NCBI GenBank assembly: GCA_964187785.1
Contig: OZ076410.1
Location: forward strand, 25,978,001-26,042,000
DNA length: 64,000 nucleotides
Direction: 5' to 3'
Source: Amphiscolops sp. MND2022
Lineage: Eukaryota
Position 1 is the first letter of the stretch. Every line of letters begins with the position of its first letter. The translations under genes and the position numbers were made by a program. Shown here one piece after another: positions 17,189 through 40,540 of the stretch. The notes below the pieces were generated by a model. The model had not been told where the DNA came from and did no database searches. It saw only the letters and a list, made by a program, of their open reading frames with translations.

Positions 17189-17334
17189 ATTGCTATCGCC
17201 TGATACCATATGAAAAGCTGTGGATGACACTTGGGTGGACAGCGATTCTTTGCCAACTAGGACAGCTGAGCTTAAACTCAATATGGGCTGTTGAACAGCG
17301 ACCTTTTTTAACTGGTGCTAAACCAAATTTTTCA

Positions 17335-21200: not shown

Positions 21201-23178
21201 TTTTGTTACAATTAAAATATCGTCTATAACACAAATACACTGTATATATATACCAATGTGAGGTCCATCAATTTCTGGAATTCCGTAGGCATTACATTGA
21301 GGCCGTAAAATTCACTTGTAAATCTACAGGTGCCTGTTGATTTCCCCCCGACAATTTGAAAATCACAATGTCTTTTGGTTAAATCATGCAACGGAATTTG
21401 GACATAAGCGTATGTCATATCATTCGACGAATACCAGGCCTCTCCTTTTTTCTGGTCTAATTTCTCAGCAATCATATCAATTAAGTTATCTAAGTTCGGC
21501 ATCTGGTATTTGTCCTTAGCTATTGATTGGTTTAATGCCCTCGCGTCTAGTGCGATTTTCACAGACTTATCCTTTTTGACAGTTATTACTGTTGGTTGAA
21601 AAAAACACATCGTCTTCAATTTTATCAAACTTCTCAATATGCCCCTCCTCTAACAGTTTTTCAATTTCTTTATCGACTTGCTCTTGTAATTGAATTGGTA
21701 TTCTGCGGCCTTTTTGCCGAGTCATTTTTGCCTCGCTTTTCACATTAATTTTATAATTTTAATTTCATAGTCTTTCACAAGGCCTTCTCTTCTGAACATT
21801 TTTGGAAATTCCTCTAATAATTGATGGACCTCGGGGCATTGCTTTTCTTCGGGACTTATCTCACAAAATATTTTGTCACTATTTACACTTTGCTGAATAA
21901 ACTCACACTCACTTCTTTCTATTGGTTAGTAATTTTGTTCCGGAGTGCAACTAGCCAATCCTGGCCTACGATCAATTGTCCAAAATTAGGTGCCACTAAA
22001 ACTCGAGCTTTCGAAACGGTAACTGCTGCTACTTCGAGTCGTACGAATTGGTACCCAAGTGAATTCAACGGCTATTTATTGCAATCCACATATCTTTCAT
22101 CATCAATCATGTCTCGGATTACAACTTTCTTTCGGAGACAATTTTATGTATATCCTTCTTCGTGAATATTGGAACTGGGGAACCAGTGTCGATGATTGCT
22201 CTAAAATGATTTCCGCACATCATCTCCTCAATATAAAATGGTTTGCAACCATTTCCGTCGACTCGTAGTGCCAGTTGCTCTTCATCACCAGATTCTTCTC
22301 CTTCTTCCGATTCTTCAATTTAATTTACTCTCCTCAGGGTTTTTGCAGTGTCCCGAGTGTTTAGCCGCTGCATCACTTCTTTGTGCCGCTGAGGAACTTT
22401 CTTATTGCAGCACTTTTCCAGGTGTCCAACTATTTTTTAAAATTTACAACGGAATTTGTTGGCGATGCAGAAATTTAAATGCTCCATGGTAAAATTCGCC
22501 TCCCCACATCTGTAGCATTCCCGGGGGTTAATTTTATCTATCGCATATATTGGCTCACTTTCCACTACTGCTTTTGCTGTTTCGGGCACTTGTGTTCCGT
22601 ATGCTTTTTGCCTCTTCACCACCTCCTCGAAGGCGATTGCGAATTCTAGGGCTTGGTCTGGCTTATTAGGCTTTGTACACAGGGCCGTGGTAGGGTATTT
22701 ATCCATGAACTTCTTCTGTGCTGCGTCGTCCAAAGCCAGATACATGACACTGATGACTTTTTAAATCGCAGAATCTTCTTCCAGATACCCCAGCAACGCG
22801 CGAACCCTGGGAATCTGCTGATCGGCATCTCTCGTCATTTCTGTGATTGAGATCGAAATTTTAGCCATCACGGATACTTGAAGTAAATCTAACCACTTGT
22901 CCCAATCCATTGCTGGATTAGTGGTTGCATCGCCCCAACATACTGGCAAACCCACGAGGTTGGAAGATGCAGAAGAACTGGGGAAGTTTCAGCTCGCAGC
23001 GCCAAGTTAACGTGGAGCTCACAGACTTTTGTAAAATATATTGAAGGTTGAAATGTGTATTGATGAATGTAATTGAATGATGTTTTGACTGTTTGTTTTT
23101 ATCAAAGGCTTTTGCAAAGTATGGCTTGAACAATGTCAGAGGTTTAGATCAAGTACCAGTAGTTATTTACAAACAGTA
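17335..23178 (-). mobile_element. Decayed Ty3/Gypsy family B: LTR(truncated)-gag-pol-LTR-gag(partial) tandem arrangement
   Basis: Homologous LTR segments at 23005-23178 and 18302-~18515 (AGTTAAC..GTTAACT termini) are each followed on the minus strand by PBS TGGCGCTGCGAGC (22992-23004, 18289-18301). There are two gag copies. Pol fragments include IIDTGSP (PR), IALDAR/YVQIPL (RT), RWVDRLLPFEFEVVHVAG (RH) and an IN core at about 19200-20030. Confidence 0.85.
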
Positions 23179-23228
23179 TTCATCATGTCATTGGACCACT
23201 ACTACTACGATTGATTTCCAACAAGGAC

Positions 23229-23530
23229 GGACAGCTAAGCTTAAGCTCAATATGGGCGCTTGAACAGCGATCTTTTTTGACTGGTGCTAAACCTAATTTT
23301 TCATTTAAGAGCTCTACGCTCTGCCACAAAGTTGGTAACAATTTCAATAGGAATAATTTTTATTGGAAGGTGTGAATACAAAAATATTTCTATTTTAGTT
23401 TTGCTGATTTCGATTTGTACCGCAATTTCCCATTTCACTCTCATTTCTTTGTTTGATATGCCTATGCTATTTCCACTACAAGTATGCACTTTTCCCACAT
23501 ATACATATATTGCTACAAATGATTTCTCGT
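23229..23530 (-). pseudogene. Possible older retroelement protease/RT-linker relic
   Basis: Translation GKVHTCSGNSIGI...IEIFLYSHLPIKIIPIE then CSSAHIELKLSCP loosely resembles retropepsin C-terminus and RT N-terminal linker. No DTG motif was seen. Confidence 0.25.
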
Positions 23531-24651
23531 GATATCACTCTAAAGCTTTATTCGACCTTGAAAAGAGTTGCTTTTATAACAAGCACTTTAGCTGAAAGAT
23601 ATATTTGAGCTGTCGAGCACATTTCATTCAAACAACAAATTCTTCTTGGAAGCACTTCAGAGTGATTTTTAGAGTGGAAAGTCCTTCAAACATCCTCTAA
23701 AACAATCCACTGATTGGAAATCAAGTACGGAAGTATGTATGAATCATCAACTCATTGCTATTGAAGTTTCTTTAGAAGCTTTGGGGAAATTATGGGTTTT
23801 ATCATGTAAGTACTATCAGTAAACAAAAAGTGATGAGACAAAAACATCTAAGTAAAAGATGTAAGTTTGTATTACTTTAAGAAGAACACTTAAAAAACCT
23901 TTGATAGCTTGAAATAGTAAAACCGCGCTCACGCTGCAATAGAACAACAATTACCTCAGTCATCAACAATTCGTATATACACAGTAGTATTTAACAAACC
24001 TTTTTTATGCTAGAAAAATTTATGACTGACTCGAGTAACAGGTACACAGCCTCTGTATATACGTATCACTTGAACAAATGTCCCCACTAAGGATTTTTTC
24101 GGAAAAAAAAATAAATAAATGCTAGTCAGAGATTATTTTTGACACTTTGTGAGGCTTGTGGAATTTTTTTCTGGGTTTATATCGTGTCTTTTATTAAATC
24201 AACAATTCCCGATAAAACGAAGTTTTGTCCTCAATTAACACAGTGAAAACTCCAAGACATGAGTGTTTGTTCCAGAAGTTAAAATGCACCTGTGATATCA
24301 AGCTTTTCATTTGAGATGCGCTAAAACAAAGGAAAACATCCATTTTTCATCCTTTTGTAGAAAGGCACACGTTTTCTTCGTTTAGCAAACACTAGCTGCA
24401 AAAAATATTGCTAAACATCTCACTCTGCAAAAAGTAATTGCTTTTTGCCCAAATTTCAAACCTCTCAACAAAAACATCAATTCACTTTTGTTAATATATG
24501 GACGTTGGGTGGAAGCACAATCTATTCCCTAGGGTGATGCGCATCGTTAATGTTATGGCAAGAATATAAACAAATAAAACTATCTCAGAGGCGATGGAAA
24601 TGAAAACGAAACCAAAATGACATTCTTTTAAAAATTATTTTTTGATGATAC

Positions 24652-26393
24652 TGTAAGAGCCACGTCCCGTGGTGTCTCTCAAATCACCAACGGACCGCGA
24701 GTCCTTTTTCAATAATTTTGTTTTCAAGCCGGATGGATTTTCCCTATTTTCCTGACTGCTAGGGGACATACTAGCCTCAGTGTCCCTGTTCCCAGAGGAA
24801 GACATTGAACTCACAATATTTTGAATCTCTGGTAGCACCTTTTCTGATATGGCAGTACTGATTGCTCTATTTATTTGGCTATGTACCATGGCCATCATGG
24901 AATCCATTTCTTGAGACAGTCTAAGATTAAATTCATTTGAGAAAGTTTCAAAAGACTGCCTAACATCGTTCTGCCTGTATTCACTATTCTCATGGGAGAA
25001 GTTTCTATATTCACCCCTTTGGTACAGATTAGCCTCACTGTCACTACGAACTGAAGATTGTTCAATTACTTCAGTTAATTCTCTCTCTATAGGATTTTCA
25101 CTCCCATTACCTAACATTATGTCCAAGTTGTCCATATCGGACATCATGTCCATTTCTCTAGACTTTCTAGTTTTCGCCTTTTGACGTCTCGTAGAAGGCA
25201 TGAGAGATTGTTGCAAGAGGAAAGAATTTAAATTGAACTCTTTAAGCTTGCAAATAATATTGTATTCGGTATTATAACAGCAAACTTGACTGTGACTATT
25301 CGTATGAAGATTATGTCCCCAGGACCACGGGTCCCGGTTTTTTTTAATCAACTAAACATGACATGCATAAAAGTGGTAGTCATCAGTCTAATTTTAGTAA
25401 CAGGTATTCTAAAAATAGACACAACATACAACGTGTCTTTACAAGTATATTATCATAATACTAAAAATAGCAACAACTATGACGTAATTGATTTACGTGC
25501 TTCTACATATATGAAGTAGTTACATTCAAAGATGTACATGCGCCCCTTCAGGCCATCCAATCAAGTTTCAGTAGCAACACTTCATGTAAAACAATACATG
25601 CTAAATCATATGAAATAAATACATGCAAAGATGGTGTGTGAACATTGAGCTGTCCTTTATGGCTTTTTAAGATACAAACAGCCCTTTTGACTTTCTATCC
25701 AGGAAGTTCTGGAAATTAAGAGAACACAAAATAAGGGGGGGAAGGACTAATGGTCCTTTTGTAAACAAGGTGACAGGTCTCCAATCAGAGCAAATATACC
25801 GCTTCTGAGATAGTACATTATCAATTTCAATATACGCACTTCTTTTATTCTACTTTGGACTCAGTGTCCACGCGTCCTTATTTAATACAAGAGTAGTGTC
25901 GTTGTGGTGGCGTGTGGCCCTTGAGTCCTTTAATTTAGAATACAGCACAGGAGCGAGCAAATGAACAATGCACTGTGATTGGTTGAGAAATTGGACGGAC
26001 AGCGCGTCTAGCGAGACAGGAAAGGAAACATTTGAACTCGTTTCCTTTACCTGTACGCCTTGGTGTCCAATTTCTCAGCCGTGGTATATATCTATCACTG
26101 TTATACATGTATTAATACACTATATTCAATTTTCAACTACATACTTTACATGGCTAATTCCGGATAATTATTCCAAAGCTTTCCAAACTTCATTAATATA
26201 AAAGCCCCGAATAAAATGATATACTTACATAAACATATGCGAAATCAATCACAATAAGATAAGTTTATAGTTTGTCTTCTTAGCCTTTTGGACTAATAGT
26301 CCATTCCTCAGTTCATTGGGAGGGTACCAGGGAGAGTATTGTAGTTGTAGCCGACTGAGTACCAATTGCCGTCGCAGGCGGCAGCCCGCGACA
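24652..26393 (-). repeat. 3' LTR (1742 bp) of the giant element; contains a copy of the gag 5' end (25201-24652)
   Basis: Near-identical to 38800-40540 (about 13 substitutions and 1 indel by eye). Confidence 0.97.
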
Positions 26394-27126
26394 CTCCCCC
26401 TGGCATAAGTAGAAAAGCGTTTGCGTTCATGCCATCTAGGAATGCTCTCCTCCTTGCCTGAGTCTCAGCTAAAGTCTCTCCTACAGTTACTGTCCTGTCC
26501 AGATATTCATTGACGGTCTCTTCTTGAATTTGTTTGACTGATTTCCCGCATACCACGCAGTCTGAGTAGTTGACTAAGGAGGGTGGCTCGGCAAGGACCA
26601 TCTCGTCGAAATGACTTGCCACCGCTTCCATTGACGTGTTCATGGAGGATGGTGAATCGCCACGAGGTTCACATGGGTATTGTAGTCCTCTGTCCTGTTC
26701 AGGTGGAGATAGCGGGGTGTCCACTTGCGGTACTAGATTTCGGCATATATTTATGGGGTGATTAGATTTGATCCTGTTGTCCCGACTTACAGGCCCATTT
26801 CCCCTTGCCAAGTTGAAGTACTTCTCCCCAAAGGTAGGAAATGGTGGCACATTTGGCCTGGGCGTCACAGGTCTTTTCTGCTTCTGACCGGCTGAGGTTG
26901 AAGGAATTGATATGGGCTCCGCAAGTTGTCTTTCAATGCATTTGGCCATGAGTCTAATCTCGTATGATTCGTCTTCGGACGACAAGTACAAGTCATCCAC
27001 AGACCACCCACAATTCGAGTCCATCGCTTCCTCTTCGTCGCTAGAGATGTATATGATTGCCGGTTCCCCTTCTGATCTTGCTGCTCCGATGAAGTCCATC
27101 GGGAAGGTCTCAGAGATGTCTGACAT
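26308..27126 (-). CDS. ORF3, 272-aa accessory protein of unknown function (acidic N-terminus with SIM-like IIYISSDEEE; CxxC), running through the PPT into U3
   Basis: ATG-initiated intact ORF whose last 86 nt lie inside the 3' LTR. No signal peptide or TM segment is visible, so it is not env-like. Confidence 0.7.
   Translation of the reverse strand: MSDISETFPMDFIGAARSEGEPAIIYISSDEEEAMDSNCGWSVDDLYLSSEDESYEIRLMAKCIERQLAEPISIPSTSAGQKQKRPVTPRPNVPPFPTFGEKYFNLARGNGPVSRDNRIKSNHPINICRNLVPQVDTPLSPPEQDRGLQYPCEPRGDSPSSMNTSMEAVASHFDEMVLAEPPSLVNYSDCVVCGKSVKQIQEETVNEYLDRTVTVGETLAETQARRRAFLDGMNANAFLLMPGGVSRAAACDGNWYSVGYNYNTLPGTLPMN
26394..26401 (-). other. Polypurine tract (AGGGGGAG) of the giant element
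   Basis: Immediately precedes the TG of the 3' LTR on the minus strand. Confidence 0.85.
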
Positions 27127-28349
27127 AGCTCGGATTTTGAAGATTTTCTTTGCAATTTTGATTGTTTTCCTGTTGGAATTTAGGTGTTGTTGAAATCAAC
27201 TGATTTTCAGCAGAGAAATTGAGATTATGGCGATCTCAGTTTCCTTCGACAGCGAGTCTCTTCGTCTCTCCTTTCCCGGGTTTTCACATTTCCCGGCAAG
27301 TAATTCTTCAATAACAGATTCCGCTTCTCTTGTTCTTTTATCATGCCGCCAAGACACTTTGTAATTGCCGACATCAGTTTTATTGACCATCATCAGCTAG
27401 GCTAATACTTCTAAGTTAGGAGAGTTACTTCAAGTGTTTATTAACACTCATCAGGTACTTGAGAGACTCAAGGAGGTAAAGTTATGGCAGTCAGCCACGC
27501 CGGCCTTCATCAATATGATCAACCAATAAGATTGCAGCAAAATTTCTCCCAAGTTAAAATGGCTTCTCAAGGTCGTAAATCCATATAAGGGATAATATAA
27601 AATGACCTTGAAAACGGAATAAAATGAAATAAAATAAAATAAATTAAAATAAAATCATGGAATAATTTTGCAAATAACAAAGTTTTCGAAATTAATGGAA
27701 AAGTAGATATCGCTGGCAGCCTTTATCCACATATCTCCATAAATTGTAAATACTTGTAAATTTGACACCAAATTGTATAGCCACGAACTCCAATCTTGAC
27801 ATCTTGTCACAACGCCAATTCTTCTTTCAATTCTTTATCATTCAGTTGTACTATTCACTTCTTGTATTATCCAGTATTTAATCACCAACGTATTTACTCA
27901 TCGTATTTTTAACCAATTATTTAGTCTTTGAGTCGTTTTTATTTATATTTTCCACTCGTCTTCAACACAGGACTCAGTGTCCATTCGTCCTCATCCCCGT
28001 GGGTTTCCTCAACTTCTCCCGGAAAATCGACATCCAGTCCCAATTTTGGACGTCCCCATCTAGCTGTCAGCTCGGCTCGACTTATCTACACAAATATCAC
28101 TTACCAACTCCCCCGCATTGGAATACTAACAGGTCAGTTGTTCTTCATACATCTTCATTAGCTAGGCTAGATTTTTGAACTAAATTGAGGCTTGATCAGG
28201 GCTCTCTTTTCGTTCAAGTACTTCCTGTCCACGTAACACGAGTGTTCACAAGTGTTCAATTTAATCTACTTCCGGAAGATTTTTTAACGCGGTTAATGGA
28301 TTTTAACTCAGGAAGCTTGCCGCTTGAATTCATTTCTTTCTATTTAGAC

Positions 28350-31300
28350 ATGTCGTCTGAAGAACAAATCGCCGACACAATTCTTCCAACATCAGAGAAT
28401 CCCGAGGTTGCCGAAGAGACCAATACAGCACCAAAGGAGCCAGTAGTGATAACTCGTCCTGACTCCAACCAGTCATCTAGTAGTGGAAACACTGAAGAGA
28501 GCATAACCACATATGCGGAGAAAACTTTACGGACACTGGCTAGTGATAATCCTTCTCTGGATATTTCATTTCTCCCGGCACCGACACTACCTGAAGATGG
28601 AACAGCAGGGCCCATAAAGGTTTCCCAGTCGATAGGTTTTGAACGTCTAGGAAAGGAAGCCTTCTCACTCGACGGCATGCAAGAAACTGGTAGCTACATT
28701 GAGCCACGGGACAAGAGCAAGGAGTACTTTGCCACTGATACTAGTGAGGCTGGCGAGCTGCTTGACGAGATGGGTACTGAAGGAACGCGTAAACGGCCTA
28801 CCTCAAGCGTTACCTGTTCTGAATTACCATCTGCAACCGAAGGTGCTGCCGGACAAGATACAGATGGTACTTCGTCTGGAGTCGCAAAGTCTGGGTTCCG
28901 AGAGGTGAAATTACCAGAACGATTTTCGGCTAATGGACAGGCTGTTTTAAGGAAACACTTCTCCTCATCTGCCCCAATTGAATTGCCTAAAGGTCACAGT
29001 ACTGTTTCATTCAGTGAGCCGCAAATACATGCCGTCCTCAAAACCATATCAGATGAAACTGTGAAATCATCCATCCATGCCATGCGTTCCCTTGTCTTAC
29101 ATGCTGTTTATGGGGCAGGAAAGCAGACTCCTGGACAGTTCCGGAAATCAATGGTTCGAGGCGTGGTCCCTACACGAGGCGATCCCAATAGCTCAGGTGC
29201 TGATACAGAAAGTGAGGGAGGAATGACAGACGATTATACGAGCGGAGCCCTCACCTCTGATGATGAGCTCGTTGTTGCAGCCAGGCCACGCTGTGGGACG
29301 CCACTACCAAGAGAACGTTCTGGCTACCCAAATACTTCCGATGAAGAGATGGACAGGACTCCTAGTACCAGCCATACCACAGTCCCTAGTCCAGGCTACA
29401 GTGAGGGAGACTACCAACCTCTAAGTGCCATGCGGGTAGAAGACCGACCACGACGACCTGGAGGCAGTCCGCCGCGCAAGAAGCGGAGGTACGTGGGCAG
29501 ACCTGGCAAAGTCATGAAGGCTGCCTATTTCAAAGGTATTCAGTGGACCAAGGTCTTCGTAACTGGACCACTAGATCCTGTGCATAACAAGCACAAATTC
29601 TACTGCCAAATTTGCAAGGCGAACGTGTCAATCTATTCCAAAGGGGCCAGAGAAATCGTGAGACACTACCAGAGTGAGACCCATCTGCGCAAAGACCAAC
29701 GATGGCGCTACGAACACCTTAGTAGGGTGGACAAAATCAGTGGACAGACTGTCCATGCAGTTAGAGGGAGGGACGGACATCTCCTTTCCGCTCTAGAACT
29801 AGAGAAGGAGAAGCCACGTTTCGAATCGGCTCCATTAGTGGATATTGGCCCTAGATTTCCCTTTTACGACGACTATATGGCCAATGCTGGGGGAATTGCA
29901 TGCCCCGAAGATTTGAGACTGGGTACTCAACTTTCTTTGATTGGACGAGCGGTCCCACATTTCGGCAATCTGACTGTACTGGAGAGACTGTGGGCCGAGG
30001 TTGGGAATTTCACCAATCATCAAGACACTTTCCGACAGCTTGATTGGAGTTCGCTCACGCTCACTGTAAGTCTTTTCATTCTTTCTACAAGTTAGGACCA
30101 CTAAGCGTATGAATTTTGAAAGTGTACCTTAATCCACTAAGTCTGTTGAGCCATAGTTTGCCCTTTCCAATTTTTGGTGATTTCGTTTTGTTCTAGGCCA
30201 TGTTTCACCACATCTTTTTGCGCGGAATGGAGGATATAGCCCAGTCCGTGAATTCCTGCGGCTCATACTCTCTGGAGTTTGAACCACACGGAAATCAGTG
30301 CATCCTTTCAATCAGATACTGGAAGGCGAGTACCCTGGCCAAGGTTCAATTGTGCAAGTACCCACTGCCTTCGGACCCGGGCCCCAGTCAGTTACTGATG
30401 GTTTCACGCCTACTGTCCTTTCTTTCCACGCTGCCACAAATTGCCTGTGTATCAGGTTGTACTTCCGAGGTGTTGCGATCAGTTGAGCGTTCCGGGCTGT
30501 TCAAGAAGGGCATCGAGTACCCATTCCGCTTCAATGCCTTTTCTCTTCACAAGCTAATGCATCAGCTTGAAGGGAGTGTGTTCGGACGAATTGACTTCTT
30601 CACACAGCTGAAGTACCTTCTGGCCTTCCTCAACAACAGTCTAGATGAGCCTTGGATGTCTTCTTGCCCAGAACTGACCAAGGTTTGAATTAATATTGCT
30701 GGACTCGTATGTTTGCACATTGTTTGTGCGTCTCACAGCACAGAGTATTCCTTTTAGGCTATAATCAATTTCGACTTGAAGATACGGTGCATTCCGACTA
30801 TTTGTACTGAATTGATCAGCAACTGGCAGCCTCTTCTTGACCACCTGACCAGACTTGCCCCTGGCTACGAAATGCGAGGAGTTAAAAATAAGGTTTCGAT
30901 TTTTCCTTCTACCTGTTTCGGTTTTCTTCTCATGACGTACGACCCCAGGATCACTATCCATTAATTGCTTGAGTTCCCTTTTAGCCGCAGAGTCTTGAGT
31001 GGACTATCATCACCGATGACTTCTTCTTAGTCAAGTTGGAATTCTTTGGAAAGATCATCTATGATTGTGAGTATTGCTTTTGTTTCAGAGGGAATTTACT
31101 CGTGATCGTTCACGTAGTTTCTTTGCAGGGACTCACTAGGTAAGGCTTTGTACTCAGAGGTCTATTTCCCTGTTTAGATATTCGTTGCTTTGAGAGAAGT
31201 CTAGTTGGACACAGGGACGCTGGTTTCTTCACCTTTGGGCAGTTGAATAATTTTGCCCGTAAGCTATGCTATCGCTCTTTGCTCCCCAAGCACCATCCTA

Positions 31301-32337
31301 GCGAAACCGATTGGACTCAACTTCCCATTCTGCGAACTGCTGAATTGCGACAACTCTCCACCAGGGACTTTCTTCACCGCTTGAAATTGAAAGAAGATCT
31401 AGACGGAGCTGCTAATTCTAAGGTCAAGCGGGACTACAGTGACAAGGAAGGGCCAATACCTAATTTCCCCAAACTCGTTGAGGAATGCAAGGAGAAGTTC
31501 GCTGGAAAAGCAAGGGGTTATGTGGTCTACCTTCTTGAGAAGCTGCTAGCGCATCACAGCATCAATGCTGAGATTGTGAAGGGAATGGCCAGTTTTGACC
31601 CACACATCCTCTTGAGTCTGCCTCGAGACCAGGCGACCTATTGTTACCGGGCACTGTATAACAGCTTCAATCTCCGTGGATGGTTGGAAGGATTCTCTGA
31701 AGACGACTGTCGGGACGAGTACCTCGAATTTATCGACTTATTTCGCGAAAAGTATGCTACCCTGGAAGATTCGCCTGATGGTTTTACTGATATGGTGGAA
31801 TTGTTGTCTAATATGACTGAGCTCCGAAGTCGACCTCATTTGTATCGTTTATTTCGATTGTGTTGCTTGTGCTTGACAGAGGACACCCCTTTGCTTCCGC
31901 CTATCCGTTTCCAGGATGTTGACGCACAGAGTCCTCGGTGTAGATTGGGTGACGTGTTGCTTCCTGCTCAGTCTTTCCTAGCACGAGCCCCTGACGCCAT
32001 CTCGGTTTGCACTAACGATGTCTCTTTGTGTAAATATCGTGAGGTTGAGCAGCAATTCAATTCTGGCAATGTGGCTGGTGACCCTTGGGTCCACGTCGAC
32101 ACTTTTGGGCGAGCTAATTTTTATAAGACTCTCCATGCCGCTTACGAATCTGTGGTCCGAGTGCCGAGGTCAGCTTCCTCGAGTAAGACTGGTTCGCGTT
32201 CTAATTCTCCTGCTGCAGTTGGTCGGCGTAAATCTTCTCCTGGGAAAGCAAAAAAGAAAGTTTCTTTTGATGGCTCCAATGCTGTGAAGGGTACCACAGA
32301 CGGCCAAGAAGCTGGACAGAAGGCCACTAAATCTTAA
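28350..32337 (+). CDS. Antisense spliced cargo gene, ~1192 aa: low-complexity N-terminus, NLS, BED-type zinc finger, degenerate hAT-transposase-like body
   Basis: Predicted exons are 28350-30065, 30197-30682, 30758-30892, 30985-31066 and 31178-32337. The four GT-AG introns (131, 75, 92, 111 bp; phases 0,0,0,1) join into one stop-free frame of 3579 nt. PPRKKRR lies at about 29469-29489 and C-x2-C-x16-H-x5-H at 29604-29684. A probable 5'UTR intron is 28133-28347. Confidence 0.8.
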
Positions 32338-32561: not shown

Positions 32562-35500
32562 CTAGTATCTGTATTCATCAGTGAAGTTGGGGGTGGGGTT
32601 AGGTCGAAGATTATATTTCCCTCCTCTAGGGCTAGAATTTTTTTCATTTTTTCCTTTTTCCGATATTCCGGGCACGGTAATATCTACGCCCCTTTCTGAA
32701 GCAATTTCCGCATTCTCTAAGTCATTTGTGACGTCATTTTGATTTTCCGTCCCACGTGGCGTTTCGTCTAGCGGGGACGACGCGTTACGGTTGCTGGCCG
32801 ATCTCGGCCGTACTTCATTCTCGTTGACGTCATTGTCATTCATTCTCTCGCTGCTGCGCTCACTTTCGTTTACGCTGCTGCTTTCATTCTCGGTGACGTA
32901 ATAGTCGACTTCTCCGTTCGCGGCGTCCTGTGGCAGACGCGTGGCCGTATGTGGCCAATCATTTATCTTCGGCTCGAATAGCTCGTACTCAAAGTCCGCT
33001 TCCCATGAAATGGTATACAGATCATCTTGCGGTATTACGATTTCTTCATCGGGCTGTAATTTCTCTTCTTCGTATTTGTCCTCTAATGGAGCATTTGGGA
33101 CAAATTTTTTGAGCCTTATCCGGTGCAAGATTTGCGTTTTATTCGTATTTAAACGACGCACTATATAATTGTTATTTGGTAGAGTTTTTTGAACGACAAA
33201 AGGACCAATCCATCGGAAGTCCCTAAATGGTATCTTAGAGCCTTGACTATCCGCTTTCGGTTGAAGAACAAAACAGTAGTCTTTCTCTTGTAGCGGAGCT
33301 GCTTTGGCCTTGCGGTCGTAGTACTCCTTGTACTTTAAATACGACTGCATAATATTCCTTTTGGTTTGATCAATGAGGATTTGTGTCCTCTGCTGCAATT
33401 CTTCCGCGAATTCAGTCGTCGGTAGGAAATTTTTGTTAGGATTATTCCCTAATTTGTGATCCAGGACGTTATAGGGAATTCGGCCATGAAAGACTTTGCT
33501 AGGCTCACAACCAATACTAGCGTGATAAGTAGTGTTATAGTTAAGCACAGCTAATGGTAAATATTTGTGCCATTGACGACGGTATTCCCCTGAGGCCATC
33601 TTTAGGTTGGTTTTTAAAGAGGCGTGTGTCCTTTCAAATTTACCAATAGTTTGCGGATGTTTAGTAGTGGCACACTTCAATGTGATCCCCAGTATTGCAG
33701 TAATTTCTTCTAAAATTTTTGATGTAAATGCGGATCCCTTGTCCGTGATGAGTGTTGTTGGCAAATACGAATGTTTCGTCATGATGTCAATTATCACCTT
33801 GGCTACGTTTGCGGCTGTTGCCTCAATTAGCGGGTAGGCGAATAAATATCTTGAAAATACGTCTATTGCCGTCATCACCGTTTGGTATCCGCCGCTGGTT
33901 GGTAAATTTGGCAGTAAATCGATTTGCATGGCATCTTCTGGGCCTAGGTCCCATTCAGGTAAATTCAGTAATTCTGGGGTGATTACCGTGTTGGGGACCC
34001 TTTTGTCCTTGGCACATGTTTCGCAGCCTTCTACCCATTTTTTGACGTGTTTAGCAATTCCGGGGTAGTAGTATTTTTGGCGAATTTCCTGCAGCATTTT
34101 AGAAATGCCCGGGTGTCTATGTGCCGTGCCATGTATTGCTTGCAATAATTCTTTGAGCAAATGCTTTGGCAATAAGATTTGATGATATTTGACCTGTCCG
34201 GTTTCATCGTAGTACTGCCGCGTCACTATCTCGTCTTTGAGGACTATTCGATCTATGTTGTTCAAGTAATACTTGTACCGAATATCCTGTTGAAGGATTT
34301 CTTCAGAGTATTCTTCTTTTTGAAGTTTCGCCCTCAATTGGAGGAGAATCGGGTCTCTGGATTGTTCAAGCAGTATCTGATTTGTTCTTCTTAATTTCTG
34401 CGTGAAATTGGTAATCTCTTCGACGGTATTTTCTGATATAGCGTCAATTTGGATTACTGTCTCAGGGACTATGAGGCCCTTTTTGGATTGTTGTTTCCGT
34501 TTCCAAATCTGTTCTTCTGTTTCGTTGTCCTCCTCGGTGAAGAAAATTTGCTCTTCTTCTGATACGCCGGCTGATTGGACATTGACCTCGATCGGTCTAG
34601 TTTCTACGTCCTCTCGTATTTTCAGGACCAACTTTTCAGTAGGGTCCATTTCCATACGGGACAAGTAGTCTGCCGCTGTATTGTTTTTGCCTGGAATGTG
34701 AGCTATAATGAAGTTGAATTGAATGACAAAATCACAAGCATTCCAGAGAGGCGGTGGAATTATCTTTGTCTGGAAGAACCTCGTGACCGATTTGTTATCT
34801 GTGAGGATAATCACGGGTTGAGGTGTTCCCCAGAAGATATGTCCAAACTCCTTAAATGCATAATATATAGCTAGGAATTCCTTTGCATATATCGACATTT
34901 TGAGCTGAGAAGGCGTGAAAGTTTTGGATCCATATGCAATCGGCGCATAGGACTTTTTAACAGAAGTGTATTTTTGATTTGGGTCGTCTTCGGTCAATAT
35001 GGCGTAACCGGCTGCTGTAAAACTTGCGTCAGTCATGAGGACCAGTTGTTTGTTCGGCAGAGGTTGTTTCAACGCCAATTGACTACATCGGTCTAAATCA
35101 CGGTTGATCGCAATAAATTGTTCAACCAGCTCTTGCGTGACTAGTACCTTTTCATCCTTTTTGAGCAATTGGAAGAAAGGAACTAGTTTTTCGGATAGCC
35201 TTGGAATATAATTCCTGTAGTAATTGAGGAAACCAATATAGCGTTGTAAGGCCTTCTTGGACTTTGGGAATTTCGTCTTTTCCAAGAAGATAGCGATTCT
35301 TTCTTTTTGGGGCTTTACGCCTTCAGGTGTAATGGTTCTCCCAAGAAAGTCAATTTCAGTAGCGCCGAAATGGCACTTGTGCATGGAAAATTTCAATCCT
35401 GCTTCTCTGATACATTGGAACGTTGCTCTTAAGTTGACGATAAGCTGGTTAGCGTCTGTCGCCGCGACACCGATATCGTCCACATATTGAGCACATTGGT

Positions 35501-37631
35501 CTGCTTTTATAACACGATCCAGGTATTCCCTCATGAAACTGGAGAAGGCCGACAGGGCTCTACTGAGTCCTTGGGCCAATCTTCTATATGCAAATGTCCT
35601 GCTGGCGAAGTTGAAAGCTAGCATTTCAATCGATTTCTGGTCTGCCATAGGAAGGCAATGATAAGCTTGGGAACAGTCGAGTTTGCAAAAGAGCTTTTTG
35701 CCTGCCATATGTTGCGCCGCATCCGTCAAGGTGCTGACTGGGTGGTTGTTATTGACGTAGTCATCTGAAATCAGATTATTGATCTTCCGCAAATCCACCA
35801 ACAGTCTCAGTTTTCCATTGGGTTTTTTCTGCGCAAATATTGGACCGGCGTACTTCGAGAATGGTAATGTTGTTATAATCCCATATTTATGGAGTAATGC
35901 CAGTTCGACCAATATGTCCTCTTTGAGGTTGACCGGAGTAGGTAGGCTCTGACTGTAAGCAGGCGACTCGTCCTTTGGGGTCAGTTTGACCGTAAATTCC
36001 TCATTGACGCCAATGTCAAATTTATGGCGTGCAAAGATGTCATGGAATTCCACTAATAGAGTTTCTATTTGTCTGATTTCATGTTGTTGTAACATTGAGT
36101 CCTTCCAATCAAAGTTGCCGAGGAATTTTCGACGAGATTCCGCATCGTCGTGCGGGTTGAGTTGTTCTAAACTTTGCAGGTTTCGTAATTCTTTGAGAAT
36201 TCTTTGTTGTATTGGGGTATGGGTCGTTTCGTCCCCTGGGTTTTCAGGCGTCGGGAACCAATATTGTTCGTATTGGTCATTATTTCTGTTAGCTTTAAGA
36301 AGGCTACTAATATAATAAATAGCGTCGTCTTCATTTTCATTCAGTAAGTGCCAGGTGGACACTGGGTCTATTGGCCTGACGTGTTTCATCTGTTCAGGGG
36401 TCATCACTGAAAAGTTTGCAATGTGCATCCCTTTCTTTATTTTATAGGGTTGATCAGTGAAATTGTTGACGTGTATTCTCGTAGCCCCTTCATGTAGTGT
36501 GAATATGGCGGTACAGAAGGTTATGTCGCCTTCCTCGTGCAGAAGATCGCTGGGTTGCAATATGCCCGTAACTGCATTTTCTGCGTAAATTTGTGATTGA
36601 ATGGGTATGACCACATGGTCATTGGGCGGAATTGTGACATCCTCAGGATTGAGGATGGGTTCCAAAACATTTGAGTATTTATGGTCAGCCGTCTTGAGTT
36701 GCATCGAGAAGTAGGGAAAGTTGAGTATACCTTGGCGCATGTCCAGGACAGTGTGGTTCCTTTGAAGGAATATTAGTCCAATTATGGGGCTTGACAGTTT
36801 TTCCATTACAATGAAAATTTCGTGAAATTCTATGTCGCCCACTTCGAATTTTAGTTCGACTGTGCTCTTTGGGGTTTCTAAGTCTCCATTTGCGACCATT
36901 ATTTGGAAGGATGGGGCAGGACCTTCTTTTACAATGGATTGAGGGGCCAACAGGCGTATTTTCCTGAGGTCTGCCTCCGGGATTGCACTGGAGTGGGCTC
37001 CAGTGTCTATCAGGCCATCTAGAGTTAATTCCCCAAAGTCCATTGGGAAATAGAGCATTCGTCGTTTGAATTTAAGTCCAAGGTTTGTTGAAAGGGGAAC
37101 GTATGGTAATTCTCCTTCTTTGGTCACTAGGAGGTGTAAGAAGGCTGTCTCGTCTAAAAGACTATTAGGAGCCTTGTGGTCCTCCTGTGTGTGTATGGCG
37201 TCTCCTTCTTGTATAGTTGCCTCAAAGTTCGGCTGCCAAAGATCAATGAGGGCCCGAGACAGTGTGTTGTCTTCGATGTCTGGGTCGTCCTCGTCGTCAG
37301 TTGGAGGGTAATCTTCGTTTCGAAATTGTAAATTTGTTTTGTCATATAGTTCGTCGTCCCAGTACGGGTCTTTGCCATACTCGGGGTCATAGTACTGAGG
37401 GTTATAATCTTCGACAGTTTGTAAGGGTCTAAATTGAGTTTCAGAGTCGTTGTAATTGCTATTCCGTCGATATAGGTATGGGTGATCACTGTGAATGATA
37501 TATTGAGTTTCTTTGCGGGCGTCGGCCAACTGCTGCTGCCAGACAGTCGATGGCATCCCTGTGGTGTCGTTTTGAGTTTGTTTATATGTAATGTTTGCAG
37601 GGTCAGATATGACGTACTGTCGTACTGACAT
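32562..37631 (-). CDS. Pol polyprotein (PR, dUTPase-like insert, RT, RNase H, integrase), 1689 aa from the first Met
   Basis: Motifs: LIDTGA (protease), LLVDLR, KLDCSQAY and YVDD (RT), TDAS (RH), H-x3-H..CETC, IDLL/TDKG/FER core and WIGPF (GPY/F module). The PR-RT-RH-IN order is diagnostic of Ty3/Gypsy. Confidence 0.97.
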   Translation of the reverse strand: MSVRQYVISDPANITYKQTQNDTTGMPSTVWQQQLADARKETQYIIHSDHPYLYRRNSNYNDSETQFRPLQTVEDYNPQYYDPEYGKDPYWDDELYDKTNLQFRNEDYPPTDDEDDPDIEDNTLSRALIDLWQPNFEATIQEGDAIHTQEDHKAPNSLLDETAFLHLLVTKEGELPYVPLSTNLGLKFKRRMLYFPMDFGELTLDGLIDTGAHSSAIPEADLRKIRLLAPQSIVKEGPAPSFQIMVANGDLETPKSTVELKFEVGDIEFHEIFIVMEKLSSPIIGLIFLQRNHTVLDMRQGILNFPYFSMQLKTADHKYSNVLEPILNPEDVTIPPNDHVVIPIQSQIYAENAVTGILQPSDLLHEEGDITFCTAIFTLHEGATRIHVNNFTDQPYKIKKGMHIANFSVMTPEQMKHVRPIDPVSTWHLLNENEDDAIYYISSLLKANRNNDQYEQYWFPTPENPGDETTHTPIQQRILKELRNLQSLEQLNPHDDAESRRKFLGNFDWKDSMLQQHEIRQIETLLVEFHDIFARHKFDIGVNEEFTVKLTPKDESPAYSQSLPTPVNLKEDILVELALLHKYGIITTLPFSKYAGPIFAQKKPNGKLRLLVDLRKINNLISDDYVNNNHPVSTLTDAAQHMAGKKLFCKLDCSQAYHCLPMADQKSIEMLAFNFASRTFAYRRLAQGLSRALSAFSSFMREYLDRVIKADQCAQYVDDIGVAATDANQLIVNLRATFQCIREAGLKFSMHKCHFGATEIDFLGRTITPEGVKPQKERIAIFLEKTKFPKSKKALQRYIGFLNYYRNYIPRLSEKLVPFFQLLKKDEKVLVTQELVEQFIAINRDLDRCSQLALKQPLPNKQLVLMTDASFTAAGYAILTEDDPNQKYTSVKKSYAPIAYGSKTFTPSQLKMSIYAKEFLAIYYAFKEFGHIFWGTPQPVIILTDNKSVTRFFQTKIIPPPLWNACDFVIQFNFIIAHIPGKNNTAADYLSRMEMDPTEKLVLKIREDVETRPIEVNVQSAGVSEEEQIFFTEEDNETEEQIWKRKQQSKKGLIVPETVIQIDAISENTVEEITNFTQKLRRTNQILLEQSRDPILLQLRAKLQKEEYSEEILQQDIRYKYYLNNIDRIVLKDEIVTRQYYDETGQVKYHQILLPKHLLKELLQAIHGTAHRHPGISKMLQEIRQKYYYPGIAKHVKKWVEGCETCAKDKRVPNTVITPELLNLPEWDLGPEDAMQIDLLPNLPTSGGYQTVMTAIDVFSRYLFAYPLIEATAANVAKVIIDIMTKHSYLPTTLITDKGSAFTSKILEEITAILGITLKCATTKHPQTIGKFERTHASLKTNLKMASGEYRRQWHKYLPLAVLNYNTTYHASIGCEPSKVFHGRIPYNVLDHKLGNNPNKNFLPTTEFAEELQQRTQILIDQTKRNIMQSYLKYKEYYDRKAKAAPLQEKDYCFVLQPKADSQGSKIPFRDFRWIGPFVVQKTLPNNNYIVRRLNTNKTQILHRIRLKKFVPNAPLEDKYEEEKLQPDEEIVIPQDDLYTISWEADFEYELFEPKINDWPHTATRLPQDAANGEVDYYVTENESSSVNESERSSERMNDNDVNENEVRPRSASNRNASSPLDETPRGTENQNDVTNDLENAEIASERGVDITVPGISEKGKNEKNSSPRGGKYNLRPNPTPNFTDEYRY

Positions 37632-37660
37632 CTTGTTACATATTTGGAGTCGTGGCGAAA

Positions 37661-39349
37661 TTAGTTTTTTGAGTCCGTTTTACGTAAGTTTGATTGGCTT
37701 GAAGATGCAGTTTCAGGGTTAGTTGACTTTTTGGACGATTTTTCATCGCCAGAGGTGTCATCAGCCTTATCCTCAGGACGTGTCCTTTTGGGTCGTAAAT
37801 GTGCTCCAGCCCCTTTCCAGCATCTTTCAACAGGGTGATTTTTCTTTCCGCAAGTAGGGCATTCTGGGTATGTAGGACGTTGGGGCTTTTTGCCATTTTT
37901 GTCCTCCAGTTCTTTCTTCTTCTTCAATTTAGGGCAGCTCTTATAGAAGTGGCCTGTGGCTTTACAATAAGAGCATTGTGCGTCCTTTTTAGTATTTATG
38001 CCATTAGAGAGCAAATTGTTGTTACTGGTGGACGCAGAGGCCATTGTAGCGATTGGCAAATCGTCTGACTCTTCTAATGCGTTGAGTTCAAGCTCTCTTT
38101 CAAGATGAGCGACGACTTCTTCATATGTCCCGTTCTCCAGGCGGGCCATATTGACAGATCGTTTCAATTTTGGAGGCAGTTTTGCGTATAATAGGCTGTC
38201 AATCATGCTTTTTGCATTTTCGCCGAAAGCTTTTTCTGCCCCCTGGTTCAGTTCTTCCAAGAAATCCGGCAATTTCATGGTATTCGGATCGAAAGTCAGC
38301 CGATGCCATTTGTGTTTTGCCGTTGCTTGGGATTCCGGTTTGACGTATTTCCTCCGGAATATGATTAGCACATCCTCGAGTGTTTGGCGGTTAATTGAGT
38401 TTATGTTCCTGAAGGTCTGCAGGGCCCCTTTTCTGAGCAATGAGTGAAAATGGTTTATTTTCATTTGCTCTGTCATGGCCGGTTGCATTTTGATCATTGC
38501 GTGGAACAAATCTTCAAAGAGTTCGAATTTCTCACTCTTTCCGTCAAACGTCATTGGTGTCGTTTGGACAGGTCGGATAGTCATCGTTTGGGGTTTATTT
38601 TGCAAATTGACTAGTACATCAGCCAATCTATTGAGCGGGTCCTGAGGCTGCTCTGTGACCTCTGGTTCTGGCGCTGGCAGAGTGGTGTCCAAAGAGACAT
38701 TGTGGTTAGACTGCTGTCTCTCTAGGTTCAGGATTGAGTGGATTCGTCCAGTGAGAAATTCAGGTATAGGCTGTTGGGCTTCGTTAGCTCCTGTCACCAT
38801 GTAAGAGCCACGTCCCGTGGTGTCTCTCAAATCACCAACGGACCGCGAGTCCTTTTTCAATAAGTTTGTTTTCAAGCCGGATGGATTTTCCCTATTTTCC
38901 TGACTGCTAGGGGACATACTAGCCTCAGTGTCCCTGTTCCCAGAGGAAGACATTGAACTCACAATATTTTGAATCTCTGGTAGCACCTTTTCTGATATGG
39001 CAGTACTGATTGCTCTATTTATTTGGCTATGTACCATGGCCATCATGGAATCCATTTCTTGAGACAGTTCAAGATTAAATTCATTTGAGAAAGTTTCAAA
39101 AGACTGCCTAACATCGTTCTGCCTGTATTCACTATTCTCATGGGAGAAGTTTCTATATTCATCCCTTTGGTACAGATTAGCCTCACTGTCACTACGAACT
39201 GAAGATTGTTCAATTACTTCAGTTAATTCTCTCTCTATAGGATTTTCACTCCCATTACCTAACATTATGTCCAAGTTGTCCATATCGGACATCATGTCCA
39301 TTTCTCTAGACTTTCTAGTTTTCGCCTTTTGACGTCTCGTAGAAGGCAT
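37661..39349 (-). CDS. Gag, 562 aa from MPSTRRQK, with two CCHC zinc knuckles; the first ~183 codons lie in the 5' LTR
   Basis: CSYCKATGHFYKSC and CPTCGKKNHPVERC. The ORF-track start at 39499 is a TTG; the first ATG is at 39349. Confidence 0.9.
   Translation of the reverse strand: MPSTRRQKAKTRKSREMDMMSDMDNLDIMLGNGSENPIERELTEVIEQSSVRSDSEANLYQRDEYRNFSHENSEYRQNDVRQSFETFSNEFNLELSQEMDSMMAMVHSQINRAISTAISEKVLPEIQNIVSSMSSSGNRDTEASMSPSSQENRENPSGLKTNLLKKDSRSVGDLRDTTGRGSYMVTGANEAQQPIPEFLTGRIHSILNLERQQSNHNVSLDTTLPAPEPEVTEQPQDPLNRLADVLVNLQNKPQTMTIRPVQTTPMTFDGKSEKFELFEDLFHAMIKMQPAMTEQMKINHFHSLLRKGALQTFRNINSINRQTLEDVLIIFRRKYVKPESQATAKHKWHRLTFDPNTMKLPDFLEELNQGAEKAFGENAKSMIDSLLYAKLPPKLKRSVNMARLENGTYEEVVAHLERELELNALEESDDLPIATMASASTSNNNLLSNGINTKKDAQCSYCKATGHFYKSCPKLKKKKELEDKNGKKPQRPTYPECPTCGKKNHPVERCWKGAGAHLRPKRTRPEDKADDTSGDEKSSKKSTNPETASSSQSNLRKTDSKN
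37664..37670 (-). promoter_or_regulatory. -1 ribosomal frameshift slippery site A_AAA_AAC
   Basis: Lies directly before the gag TAA. The -1 frame reads KKLISPRLQICNK-MSVRQY, in frame with pol. Confidence 0.8.
38788..38799 (-). other. Primer-binding site TGGTGACAGGAG (tRNA-Leu-like), embedded in the gag ORF
   Basis: Abuts the LTR terminal CA. It matches 11/12 to the complement of the vertebrate tRNA-Leu(CAG) 3' end as I recall it; host tRNA not verified. Confidence 0.75.
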
Positions 39350-40540
39350 GAGAGATTGTTGCAAGAGGAAAGAATTTAAATTGAAATCTTTAAGCTTGCA
39401 AATAATATTGTATTCGGTATTATAACAGCGAACTTGACTGTGACTATTCGTATGAAGATTATGTCCCCAGGACCACGGGTCCCGGTTATTTATAATCAAC
39501 TAAACATGACATGCATAAAAGTGGTAGTCATCAGTCTAATTTTAGTAACAGGTATTCTAAAAATAGACACAACATACAACGTGTCTTTACAAGTATATTA
39601 TCATAATACTAAAAATAGCAACAACTATGACGTAATTGATTTACGTGCTTCTACATATATGAAGTAGTTACATTCAAAGATGTACATGCGCCCCTTCAGG
39701 CCATCCAATCAAGTTTCAGTAGCAACACTTCATGTAAAACAATACATGCTAAATCATATGAAATAAATACATGCAAAGATGGTGTGTGAACATTGAGCTG
39801 TCCTTTATGGCTTTTTAAGATACAAACAGCCCTTTTGACTTTCTATCCAGGAAGTTCTGGAAATTAAGAGAACACAAAAGAAGGGGGGAAGGACTAATGG
39901 TCCTTTTGTGAACAAGGTGACAGGTCTCCAATCAGAGCAAATATACCGCTTCTGAGATAGTACATTATCAATTTCAATATACGAACTTCTTTTATTCTAC
40001 TTTGGACTCAGTGTCCACGCGTCCTTATTTAATACAAGAGTAGCGTCGTTGTGGTGGCGTGTGGCCCTTGAGTCCTTTAATTTAGAATACAGCACAGGAG
40101 CGAGCAAATGAACAATGCACTGTGATTGGTTGAGAAATTGGACGGACAGCGCGTCTAGCGAGACAGGAAAGGAAACATTTGAACTCGTTTCCTTTACCTG
40201 TACGCCTTGGTGTCCAATTTCTCAGCCGTGGTATATATCTATCACTGTTATACATGTATTAATACACTATATTCAATTTTCAACTACATACTTTACATGG
40301 CTAATTCCGGATAATTATTCCAAAGCTTTCCAAACTTCATTAATATAAAAGCCCCGAATAAAATGATATACTTACATAAACATATGCGAAATCAATCACA
40401 ATAAGATAAGTTTATAGTTTGTCTTCTTAGACTTTTGGACTAATAGTCCATTCCTCAGTTCATTGGGAGGGTACCAGGGAGAGTATTGTAGTTGTAGCCG
40501 ACTGAGTACCAATTGCCGTCGCAGGCGGCAGCCCGCGACA
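38800..40540 (-). repeat. 5' LTR (1741 bp) of the giant element
   Basis: Direct repeat of 24652-26393, bounded by the PBS and the TSD. Confidence 0.97.
39991..40129 (-). promoter_or_regulatory. Candidate LTR core promoter/polyA region: CCAAT (40125-40129), TATTAAATAA (40025-40034), AATAAA (39991-39996)
   Basis: Order and spacing on the minus strand match a typical U3-R arrangement. Motif-only evidence. Confidence 0.35.

What the first reader, a model, noticed from the sequence alone, without database searches (positions are those of the whole stretch)
26308..27126. ORF3: accessory protein with a classic SUMO-interacting-like motif, overlapping PPT and U3
Seen: IIYISSDEEE (27028-27057) and a second LYLSSEDES, a Pro-rich linker, CVVC, and a C-terminus encoded across the PPT and 86 nt into the LTR. 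Known: hydrophobic core plus Ser and an acidic tract is the phospho-SIM pattern of PML, Daxx and PIAS. SUMO-dependent recruitment of SetDB1 is central to piRNA-guided transcriptional silencing, and U3-overlapping accessory ORFs occur in HIV (nef) and MMTV (sag). Inference: a candidate SUMO decoy or anti-silencing factor.
Basis: inference. Interest (0 to 1): 0.75.

Follow-up and report, generated by a model that had tools for sequence, protein, structure and literature searches.

The report
Retrotransposon accessory gene with SUMO motif
A large group of jumping-gene families in what is likely an acoel flatworm carries an extra, strongly conserved gene of no known family, whose best-kept feature is a motif predicted to bind the host's SUMO tag and which likely starts at an unusual AUU codon, making it a candidate, untested, tool for keeping the element switched on against host silencing.

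Summary
ORF3 (26308-27126, minus strand, 272 aa) lies in a young 15.9-kb Ty3/gypsy element. It reads through the PPT and 86 nt into U3 and carries IIYISSDEEE. It is a real gene: intact in 26 of 30 close copies, dN/dS mostly 0.06-0.13, and in the same place in 10 of 10 distant families (32-55% identity). The SIM-like block is the best-conserved 9-mer of the family and follows published SIM sub-site preferences. The second motif is poorly conserved and fails the strict pattern. New here: coding conservation begins 10 codons above the ATG, at an ATT/ATA codon in Kozak-like context in 11 of 11 families. Nearby in-frame stops and the lack of an ATG point to a non-AUG start that adds a basic N-terminus. 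ORF3 sits head-to-head with a conserved antisense zinc-finger gene. No Pfam, PDB or Atlas match was found. SUMO binding is about 0.55-0.6 likely; a phospho-FFAT or other CK2-site reading fits one clade better. An anti-silencing or transactivating role (about 0.35) is inferred only. No RNA, fold or complex evidence could be obtained.

The parts
26308..27126 (-). ORF3 from the first ATG, 272 aa, no known family
   Evidence: purifying selection; no Pfam/PDB/Atlas match
27127..27156 (-). Predicted 10-codon basic N-terminal extension starting at ATT 27156-27154 (non-AUG start inferred)
27028..27057 (-). IIYISSDEEE, parallel phospho-SIM-like motif; best-conserved 9-mer of the family
26965..26991 (-). 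LYLSSEDES, second acidic motif; weakly conserved, fails strict SIM pattern
26704..26745 (-). Conserved block C128 ... P133 ... TPLSP (S140, P141 nearly invariant)
26548..26559 (-). CVVC (C190/C193); with C128 and C251 a possible 4-Cys metal site (inferred)
26394..26401 (-). Polypurine tract, read as P-G-G in ORF3
26308..26393 (-). U3-encoded C-terminal 86 nt; first six codons frozen at DNA level, later codons vary synonymously
27200..27231 (-). GCCAT ... 27 nt ... CAG element above the ATT: initiator-like start site or (trans-)splice acceptor (unresolved)
27433..27448 (.). Near-palindrome AGTGTTTATTAACACT in the ORF3/antisense intergenic region, kept in many families
28296..32337 (+). Antisense multi-exon gene (predicted exons 28296-30065, 30197-30682, ~31144-32337) with a CxxC...H...H finger; head-to-head with ORF3
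32562..37679 (-). pol frame: protease, dUTPase-like, RT, RNase H, integrase
37661..39349 (-). gag, beginning inside the 5' LTR
24652..26393 (-). 3' LTR, 1742 bp
38800..40540 (-). 5' LTR; PBS at 38799-38788; TSD GATAC at 24647-24651 and 40541-40545

Best explanation
ORF3 is a conserved, purifying-selected accessory gene of a large Ty3/gypsy clade; it likely starts at an AUU codon and likely encodes a small nuclear adaptor that would bind SUMO through a CK2-phosphorylated SIM to help keep the element transcribed. Shown: gene, position, selection, motif conservation, upstream coding signature. Inferred step 1 (about 0.8): a short-leader mRNA whose 5' boundary is the CAG at 27200-27202 is scanned; some ribosomes start at AUU (long form, basic tail MAKKIFKIRA) and the rest at the AUG ten codons on. 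Inferred step 2 (about 0.55-0.6): CK2 phosphorylates S28/S29, and IIYI-pS-pS-DEEE docks in the SUMO groove. Inferred step 3 (about 0.35): the Cys-rich C-terminal half oligomerises or binds a partner, most simply the co-inherited antisense zinc-finger protein transcribed from the same intergenic region. The protein would then work as a SUMO-reading co-activator or anti-silencing adaptor at the element's own promoters, as HCMV IE2 uses a phospho-SIM, rather than as a free SUMO sponge.
For: Real gene: 26 of 30 close copies intact. 120 of 142 protein matches at 59-100% identity have no stop (my count). dN/dS is 0.055-0.128 in 9 of 20 chosen stop-free copies, 0.26 in the closest, and dS is saturated in 10. 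Shared variants are 47 synonymous/17 non-synonymous vs 30/56 for singletons, p=3e-6. Same layout in 10 of 10 distant families; ORF3 and integrase trees recover the same three main groups. SIM: S28 and S29 are the two top-ranked columns, and the 9-mers at 24-33 rank first. Core position 4 is hydrophobic in 39 of 41 rows, position 2 in 33 of 41, position 1 is loosest, which is the selectivity order given for parallel SIMs in PMC12751080. Host SUMO keeps F36/V38/K39/T42/K46/L47/R54 equivalents (numbering). AUU start: A at -3, AT[TA], then GCN-AAR-AAR in 11 of 11 families; 90 synonymous vs 0 non-synonymous pairwise differences at codons 2-4; in-frame stops 3-10 codons upstream with no AG between in 4 of 11 families; 0 ATG in the 80 nt upstream vs 9.3 expected (0 of 5,000 shuffles). 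No hydrophobic segment (max 19-residue Kyte-Doolittle mean 0.86).
Against: 15 of 41 rows lack the strict SIM. In one clade (L119/L121/L135/L137 group) the core reads S-Y-L/S-Y-F/A-Y-F; there the motif scores 1.5-2.5 on the phospho-FFAT matrix, though several of those rows carry a reverse-type core (9 of 41 rows overall). The Ser/acidic half is better conserved than the hydrophobic core (0.56 for 24-32 vs 0.36 for 24-27), which fits any CK2-site reader. Y at the free position in 28 of 41 rows is more fixed than a SIM needs. The window's protein has no psi-K-x-E SUMOylation site, unlike IE2. There is no classical NLS by eye. Six of 20 subfamily copies have the ATH motif altered or out of frame, and one distant family (P0304) lacks it. 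Nothing here links ORF3 to silencing, to the nucleus or to the antisense protein beyond co-inheritance; host PIAS/SetDB1 genes were not checked.
Confidence: 0.38

Rival explanations
1. The motif is a phospho-FFAT: I-Y-I-pS-S-D-E binds the ER protein VAP, and the basic N-terminal extension binds another membrane or RNA, tethering particles or translation to ER contact sites.
For: Scored with Table EV4 of PMC7705450: the window's protein scores 3 at two sites. 10 of 41 rows score 2.5 or less in the first 70 residues, 7 of them in one clade. Tyr at FFAT position 2 in 28 of 41 rows. The extension is cationic, net +3 to +5.
Against: A score of 3 or less arises in 415 of 5,000 shuffles. 10 of 41 rows score 5 or more, most with C or I at the key aromatic position, yet 9 of those 10 keep a strict SIM.
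Confidence: 0.15
2. The N-terminal 70 residues are an acidic activation region, or a docking site for a CK2-phosphosite reader other than SUMO (FHA-type or PIH1D1-type; names recalled), and ORF3 is a SUMO-independent transactivator.
For: S-S-D/E-E is better conserved than the core. Net charge is -14 in residues 1-60. An F-x-hydrophobic-acidic motif is kept near the N-terminus. ORF3 is head-to-head with a zinc-finger gene.
Against: Beta-branched I/V residues are kept at core positions 1, 2 and 4 in most lineages, which these readers do not need.
Confidence: 0.17
3. ORF3 is a Rev/CERV-like factor that exports or stabilises unspliced genomic RNA; the phospho-motif regulates it.
For: Precedent: Cer1 CERV is a phosphorylated, Cys-containing accessory protein needed for gRNA export (PMC10309623, abstract and section 9). 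ORF3 has a conserved R-R/K-x-A-F helix and a basic extension.
Against: No sequence comparison to CERV was run and no family match exists. The protein is net acidic, and no export signal was identified.
Confidence: 0.15
4. ORF3 is a free SUMO decoy that titrates SUMO away from the silencing machinery.
For: SUMO/SIM contacts recruit SetDB1/Wde in Drosophila piRNA silencing (PMC8490990 passages). There are hundreds of gene copies (397 candidates).
Against: There is only one well-conserved SIM. The rest of the protein (C128, P133-P141, C190-C193, R-R-A-F-x-x-G, C-terminal P-G-T/V-L-P) is equally constrained, which a simple sponge does not need. A weak AUU start suggests low amounts of the long form.
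Confidence: 0.1
5. The frame is an open by-product of cis-acting DNA (PPT, LTR end, promoter motifs) and is not translated.
For: Six codons at the LTR edge are frozen at third positions. Upstream of the antisense gene a fixed DNA motif mimics a conserved peptide.
Against: Saturated synonymous change with low dN across the ORF, the frame-specific excess of shared synonymous variants, and synonymous variation inside U3 from C251 on.
Confidence: 0.02

Closest known systems
HCMV IE2 phospho-SIM transactivator (10.1101/655282, abstract read)
   Same: Mobile-element protein with a SIM flanked by CK2 serines; works-like model for step 2-3
   Different: No homology; IE2 is itself SUMOylated and binds DNA; the window's ORF3 has no psi-K-x-E site and no recognisable DNA-binding domain
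Parallel phospho-SIMs of cellular proteins such as PML (PMC12751080, passages and section 16)
   Same: psi-psi-X-psi core followed by Ser and acidic tract; same order of positional strictness
   Different: Tyr or Cys usually at X; core weakened in one clade; binding untested
Additional ORFs between pol and the 3' LTR in plant Ty3/gypsy, e.g. Retand/Grande/RIRE2 (PMC7264820 part 1 of 3; PMC11963269 abstract)
   Same: [quoted passage not shown]
   Different: Here a sense ORF that is not env-like overlaps PPT and U3 and is head-to-head with the antisense gene; no TRP28 or other Pfam match
HIV nef and MMTV sag (recalled)
   Same: Accessory ORF running across the PPT into U3
   Different: No homology; no Gly2 for myristoylation; no transmembrane segment; host element is Ty3/gypsy, not a retrovirus
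Rice tungro bacilliform virus ORF I AUU start (PMC5902531 passages)
   Same: AUU initiation with leaky scanning in a reverse-transcribing element (about 10% there)
   Different: There AUU opens a separate ORF after shunting; here it would add an in-frame N-terminal extension
C. elegans Cer1 CERV (PMC10309623, abstract and section 9)
   Same: Lineage-restricted, phosphorylated, Cys-bearing accessory protein of an animal LTR retrotransposon
   Different: CERV is 517 aa and spliced from the gag region; ORF3 is 272-282 aa at the 3' end

Membership tests
Ty3/gypsy LTR retrotransposon (host element) | TG...CA LTRs, TSD, PBS, PPT | tested here: met
Ty3/gypsy LTR retrotransposon (host element) | pol order PR-RT-RH-IN | tested here: met
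Parallel phospho-SIM (IIYISSDEEE) | Four-residue core with three or more V/I/L, fourth position hydrophobic | tested here: met
   IIYI; strict pattern in 26 of 41 rows; fourth position hydrophobic in 39 of 41 (definition)
Parallel phospho-SIM (IIYISSDEEE) | Ser/acidic tract after the core | tested here: met
   SS-D/E-D/E/S in 37 of 41 rows
Parallel phospho-SIM (IIYISSDEEE) | Exposed, unstructured context | tested here: inconclusive
   Net charge -14 in residues 1-60 and variable flanks; no structure model could be made
Parallel phospho-SIM (IIYISSDEEE) | Host SUMO with intact SIM groove | tested here: met
   Two-exon SUMO gene in L089; alignment
Parallel phospho-SIM (IIYISSDEEE) | Binding to SUMO, raised by CK2 phosphorylation | not testable with these tools
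   Needs NMR, ITC or pull-down
SIM (second motif LYLSSEDES) | Strict core and conservation | tested here: not met
   No strict match; column score 0.07
Phospho-FFAT | F/Y at position 2 and low matrix score across the family | tested here: inconclusive
   Window score 3 (8% of shuffles reach it); 2.5 or less in 10 of 41; 5 or more in 10 of 41
Env or small fusogen | Signal peptide or transmembrane helix | tested here: not met
   Max hydropathy 0.86; no Pfam match
SUMO-targeted ubiquitin ligase (SIM + RING) | RING domain with eight metal ligands | tested here: not met
   Only C128, C190, C193, C251 (and a partly kept H123) are conserved; no RING match
Nef/Sag-type U3 ORF | ORF crossing PPT into U3 | tested here: met
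   86-95 nt of LTR in 17 of 17 rows
Nef/Sag-type U3 ORF | Homology, myristoylation Gly2 or membrane anchor | tested here: not met
Conserved non-AUG N-terminal extension | Near-cognate codon in strong context at the edge of coding conservation, no upstream AUG or acceptor in frame | tested here: met
Conserved non-AUG N-terminal extension | Initiation shown by ribosome profiling or N-terminomics | not testable with these tools
   No such data available
CERV-like export factor | Homology to CERV; RNA export function | not tested
   Only the paper was read

The most novel reading that the evidence does not exclude
An animal LTR-retrotransposon clade carries a two-gene counter-silencing cassette on a bidirectional internal promoter: an antisense zinc-finger protein that finds the element's DNA and an AUU-initiated, SUMO-reading ORF3 protein that intercepts SUMO-dependent heterochromatin assembly there. 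This would be a sequence-specific anti-silencing system in animals, and could help explain why LTR elements fill about half of acoel genomes.
Probability: 0.22. Interest if true: 0.88.

Novelty: new variant of a known kind. Interest (0 to 1): 0.64.

Why it matters
Whether animal retrotransposons encode active counter-defences against SUMO/SetDB1-type silencing is an open question with few molecular candidates. This family gives a small, well-bounded protein with one testable motif, natural variants of that motif across clades, and a co-inherited partner, in a lineage where LTR elements are reported to make up about half of the genome (PMC9911081 passages). Independently of function, it is a clean case of a non-AUG start kept across families only about 30% identical, and of a U3-overlapping ORF outside retroviruses.

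Tried and rejected
No RNA holder was listed for 26394-28300, so no reads could be laid; this says nothing on expression. Pfam: 0 families for P0001, and only scattered sub-threshold hits for 41 homologues. PDB by profile: one hit at E 1.3, taken as chance. ESM Atlas: no usable hit, twice. Splicing of a coding exon into the IAKK stretch was rejected: there are in-frame stops 3-10 codons upstream without AG in 4 of 11 families, and the distance from the conserved CAG to the ATH varies in all three phases. Read-through from the 65-aa upstream frame was rejected: it is not frame-conserved. A start AUG donated by a spliced leader was rejected: the acoel SL given in PMC9911081 has no ATG (assuming a similar SL in this host). 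A hAT-transposase origin of the antisense gene, suspected by eye, was not confirmed. ORF3 is not related to the antisense exon-3 protein. Three distant homologues (P0225, P0150, P0162) gave no close match in this genome at the strict cut-offs used, and P0157 only 46%; they probably come from other genomes, but the sources are unnamed. Host PIAS and SetDB1 genes were not checked. Literature searches (listings only) returned no description of this element, protein or a retrotransposon-encoded SIM; the library lacks most subscription papers.

Full report
Setting. The finding lies in a 15.9-kb Ty3/gypsy element on the minus strand. Its LTRs are 24652-26393 and 38800-40540 (99.2% identical), with TSD GATAC, a PBS and a PPT. 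It has gag, and a pol with protease, dUTPase-like, RT, RNase H and integrase domains. Between pol and ORF3 lies a plus-strand, apparently three-exon gene with a CxxC...H...H finger; it and ORF3 point away from each other across about 1.1 kb. The host SUMO's closest named relatives are from Convolutriloba macropyga (83%) and Symsagittifera roscoffensis (80%), so the host is likely an acoel (inference).

Observation. A core + Ser + acidic motif arose in 24 of 20,000 whole-protein shuffles and 52 of 20,000 shuffles of residues 1-70; six other proteins tested had none.

A real gene. Of the 30 best DNA matches fetched (of 40 scored, 397 candidates; the window's own copy is one; best hits favour intact copies), 26 are open, 2 frameshifted and 2 carry stops. 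In the 28 without indels, variants shared by two or more copies are 47 synonymous to 17 non-synonymous, against 30 to 56 for singletons (Fisher p=3e-6); four of the five other frames show no such excess, and the fifth shares ORF3's third positions. A protein search gave 142 matches at 59-100% identity, 120 without a stop by my count. Against 20 of these, which I chose as stop-free, dN/dS was 0.055-0.128 in nine, 0.26 in the closest, and dS was saturated in ten. A profile found 474 cluster representatives at E<=0.001. The listed hits are all unnamed ENA proteins. There is no Pfam, PDB or Atlas match. Ten further families, chosen, all show LTR-gag-pol-antisense gene-ORF3-LTR; one has lost part of the antisense gene and two of the copies read are rearranged or frameshifted. 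ORF3 is 32-55% identical to the window's where the integrase core is 75-99% identical, and both trees recover the same three main groups, with a long-branch warning on the ORF3 tree.

The overlap. In 17 of 17 rows the ORF ends 86-95 nt inside the LTR. The six codons at the LTR edge barely vary even at third positions, so the V-S-Q/R-A-A-A conservation is largely DNA constraint. From C251 onward, and in the terminal P-G-T/V-L-P, codons vary synonymously, so the U3-encoded tail is under protein selection.

The motif. In 41 homologues (effective number 24.6) S28 and S29 are the top two columns and the 9-mers at 24-33 rank first. PMC12751080 (passages and section 16) defines a parallel SIM as psi-psi-X-psi followed by acidic or phosphorylatable residues, with position 4 strictest and position 2 next, and notes that CK2 targets such serines. 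Here position 4 is hydrophobic in 39 of 41 rows, position 2 in 33, and position 1 is loosest; the strict pattern holds in 26 of 41 and any forward or reverse pattern in 32. The host has a two-exon SUMO gene with the groove residues kept. Against: the Ser/acidic half is better kept than the core; one clade reads S-Y-L/F and scores 1.5-2.5 on the phospho-FFAT matrix of PMC7705450 (Table EV4). The window's own score of 3 is reached by 415 of 5,000 shuffles, and 10 of 41 rows fail that matrix while 9 of them keep the strict SIM. The second motif fails the strict pattern and scores 0.07. The C-terminal half keeps C128, C190, C193 and C251 (34-38 of 41), a P-x4-P-x-S-P block and an R-R/K-x-A-F-x-x-G helix; a metal site is possible but unmodelled, and it is not a RING. 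There is no transmembrane segment.

Above the ATG, all 11 families read I-A-K-K in frame. The Ile codon is ATT (7) or ATA (4), with A at -3 and GC at +4/+5 in 11 of 11. Information content is mostly under 0.8 bits upstream of -6 and 2 bits at these positions. Codons 2-4 differ by 90 synonymous and 0 non-synonymous pairwise changes (pairs are not independent), while the first ATG falls anywhere from codon 6 to 14. In 4 of 11 families an in-frame stop lies 3-10 codons upstream with no AG between, which excludes a spliced coding exon there. No ATG occurs in the 80 nt upstream in any of the 11 (9.3 expected). The motif is intact in 30 of 30 young copies and in 14 of 20 subfamily copies; one distant family (P0304) lacks it. 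A CAT and a CAG 27-29 nt apart lie 22-51 nt above the codon in 11 of 11 families and 24 of the 29 loci scanned, against 7 of 110 background windows. The CAG lacks the T-rich run of the element's own intron acceptors, so an initiator is my first reading. A (trans-)splice acceptor remains possible, since 30.2% of genes are SL trans-spliced in S. roscoffensis (PMC9911081 passages). Either way the leader holds no AUG. AUU initiation at about 10% with leaky scanning is known from RTBV (PMC5902531 passages). The extension is basic, net +3 to +5; its job is unknown.

Mechanism. The most economical reading is a nuclear adaptor that reads SUMO through a CK2-primed SIM and acts with the co-inherited antisense zinc-finger protein on the element's own promoters. 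It would work like HCMV IE2 (10.1101/655282, abstract) and against a SUMO-dependent SetDB1 pathway of the kind described in Drosophila (PMC8490990 passages). Only the gene, the motif and the start signature are shown; binding, localisation, partner and effect are inferred. I put the chain at 0.38, the rivals at 0.17 (other CK2 reader or activation region), 0.15 (VAP tether), 0.15 (RNA export), 0.10 (free decoy) and 0.02 (no protein).

Comparison and novelty. Extra ORFs between pol and the 3' LTR, sense and antisense, are known in plant elements (PMC7264820 part 1 of 3; PMC11963269 abstract), CERV in C. elegans, and U3 ORFs in HIV and MMTV (recalled). ORF3 shows no match to any of these in Pfam, and CERV was not compared directly. 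Searches showed no description of this family. An earlier scan note on a fungal gypsy with a non-AUG accessory ORF (e1-7395317) is a parallel, not evidence. Verdict: a new variant of a known kind, interest 0.64.

Noticed in passing
window 28296-32337 (+): Conserved antisense multi-exon gene (about 1,100 aa if spliced as predicted) with a CxxC...H...H finger, present in all 10 other families read (partly deleted in L123). Only sub-threshold C2H2 Pfam hits; a hAT/BED origin was suspected but not confirmed.
   Followed up: partly
L124/L125 vs window: This family shares 95% pol identity (99% in the integrase core) with the window's element but only 74% gag, 55% ORF3 and 41-47% antisense protein, suggesting recombination that swaps pol between families.
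   Followed up: no
L123:4425-4440 and L133:4533-4548: In these two families the purine tract before the 3' LTR reads CCCGCAG instead of GGGGGAG while the ORF3 frame is kept; how the plus strand is primed there is unexplained.
   Followed up: no
window 38800-40540: gag starts at 39349, inside the 1.74-kb LTR, so about 550 nt of gag are repeated in the 3' LTR (frame 24635-25351).
   Followed up: no
window ~36400-36650 (pol residues 345-427): dUTPase-like segment between protease and RT (Pfam PF00692, E 1.4e-4, at the cut-off).
   Followed up: no
window ~28190-28290: Conserved DNA motifs above the antisense ATG (GCTTGATCAGG, ACTTCCTGT, ACTTCCGGAAG; ETS-like by recall), which mimic a conserved peptide; a 14-mer at 27970-27983 also recurs in the LTR.
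   Followed up: partly
window 17200-23300 (-): A second, decayed gypsy-like element of another family; its pol-tail frame (18622-19221) has TIIEISSGTTE, SIM-like by eye but not matching the patterns used; no ORF3 homologue there.
   Followed up: partly
window 26962-26964: This copy has Tyr at ORF3 residue 55 where the other 27 of 28 indel-free copies have Asp.
   Followed up: yes
G000 C5:3374023-3402970, C7:62493003-62523164 and others: ORF3 matches recur at about 14-kb spacing, suggesting tandem elements sharing LTRs.
   Followed up: no
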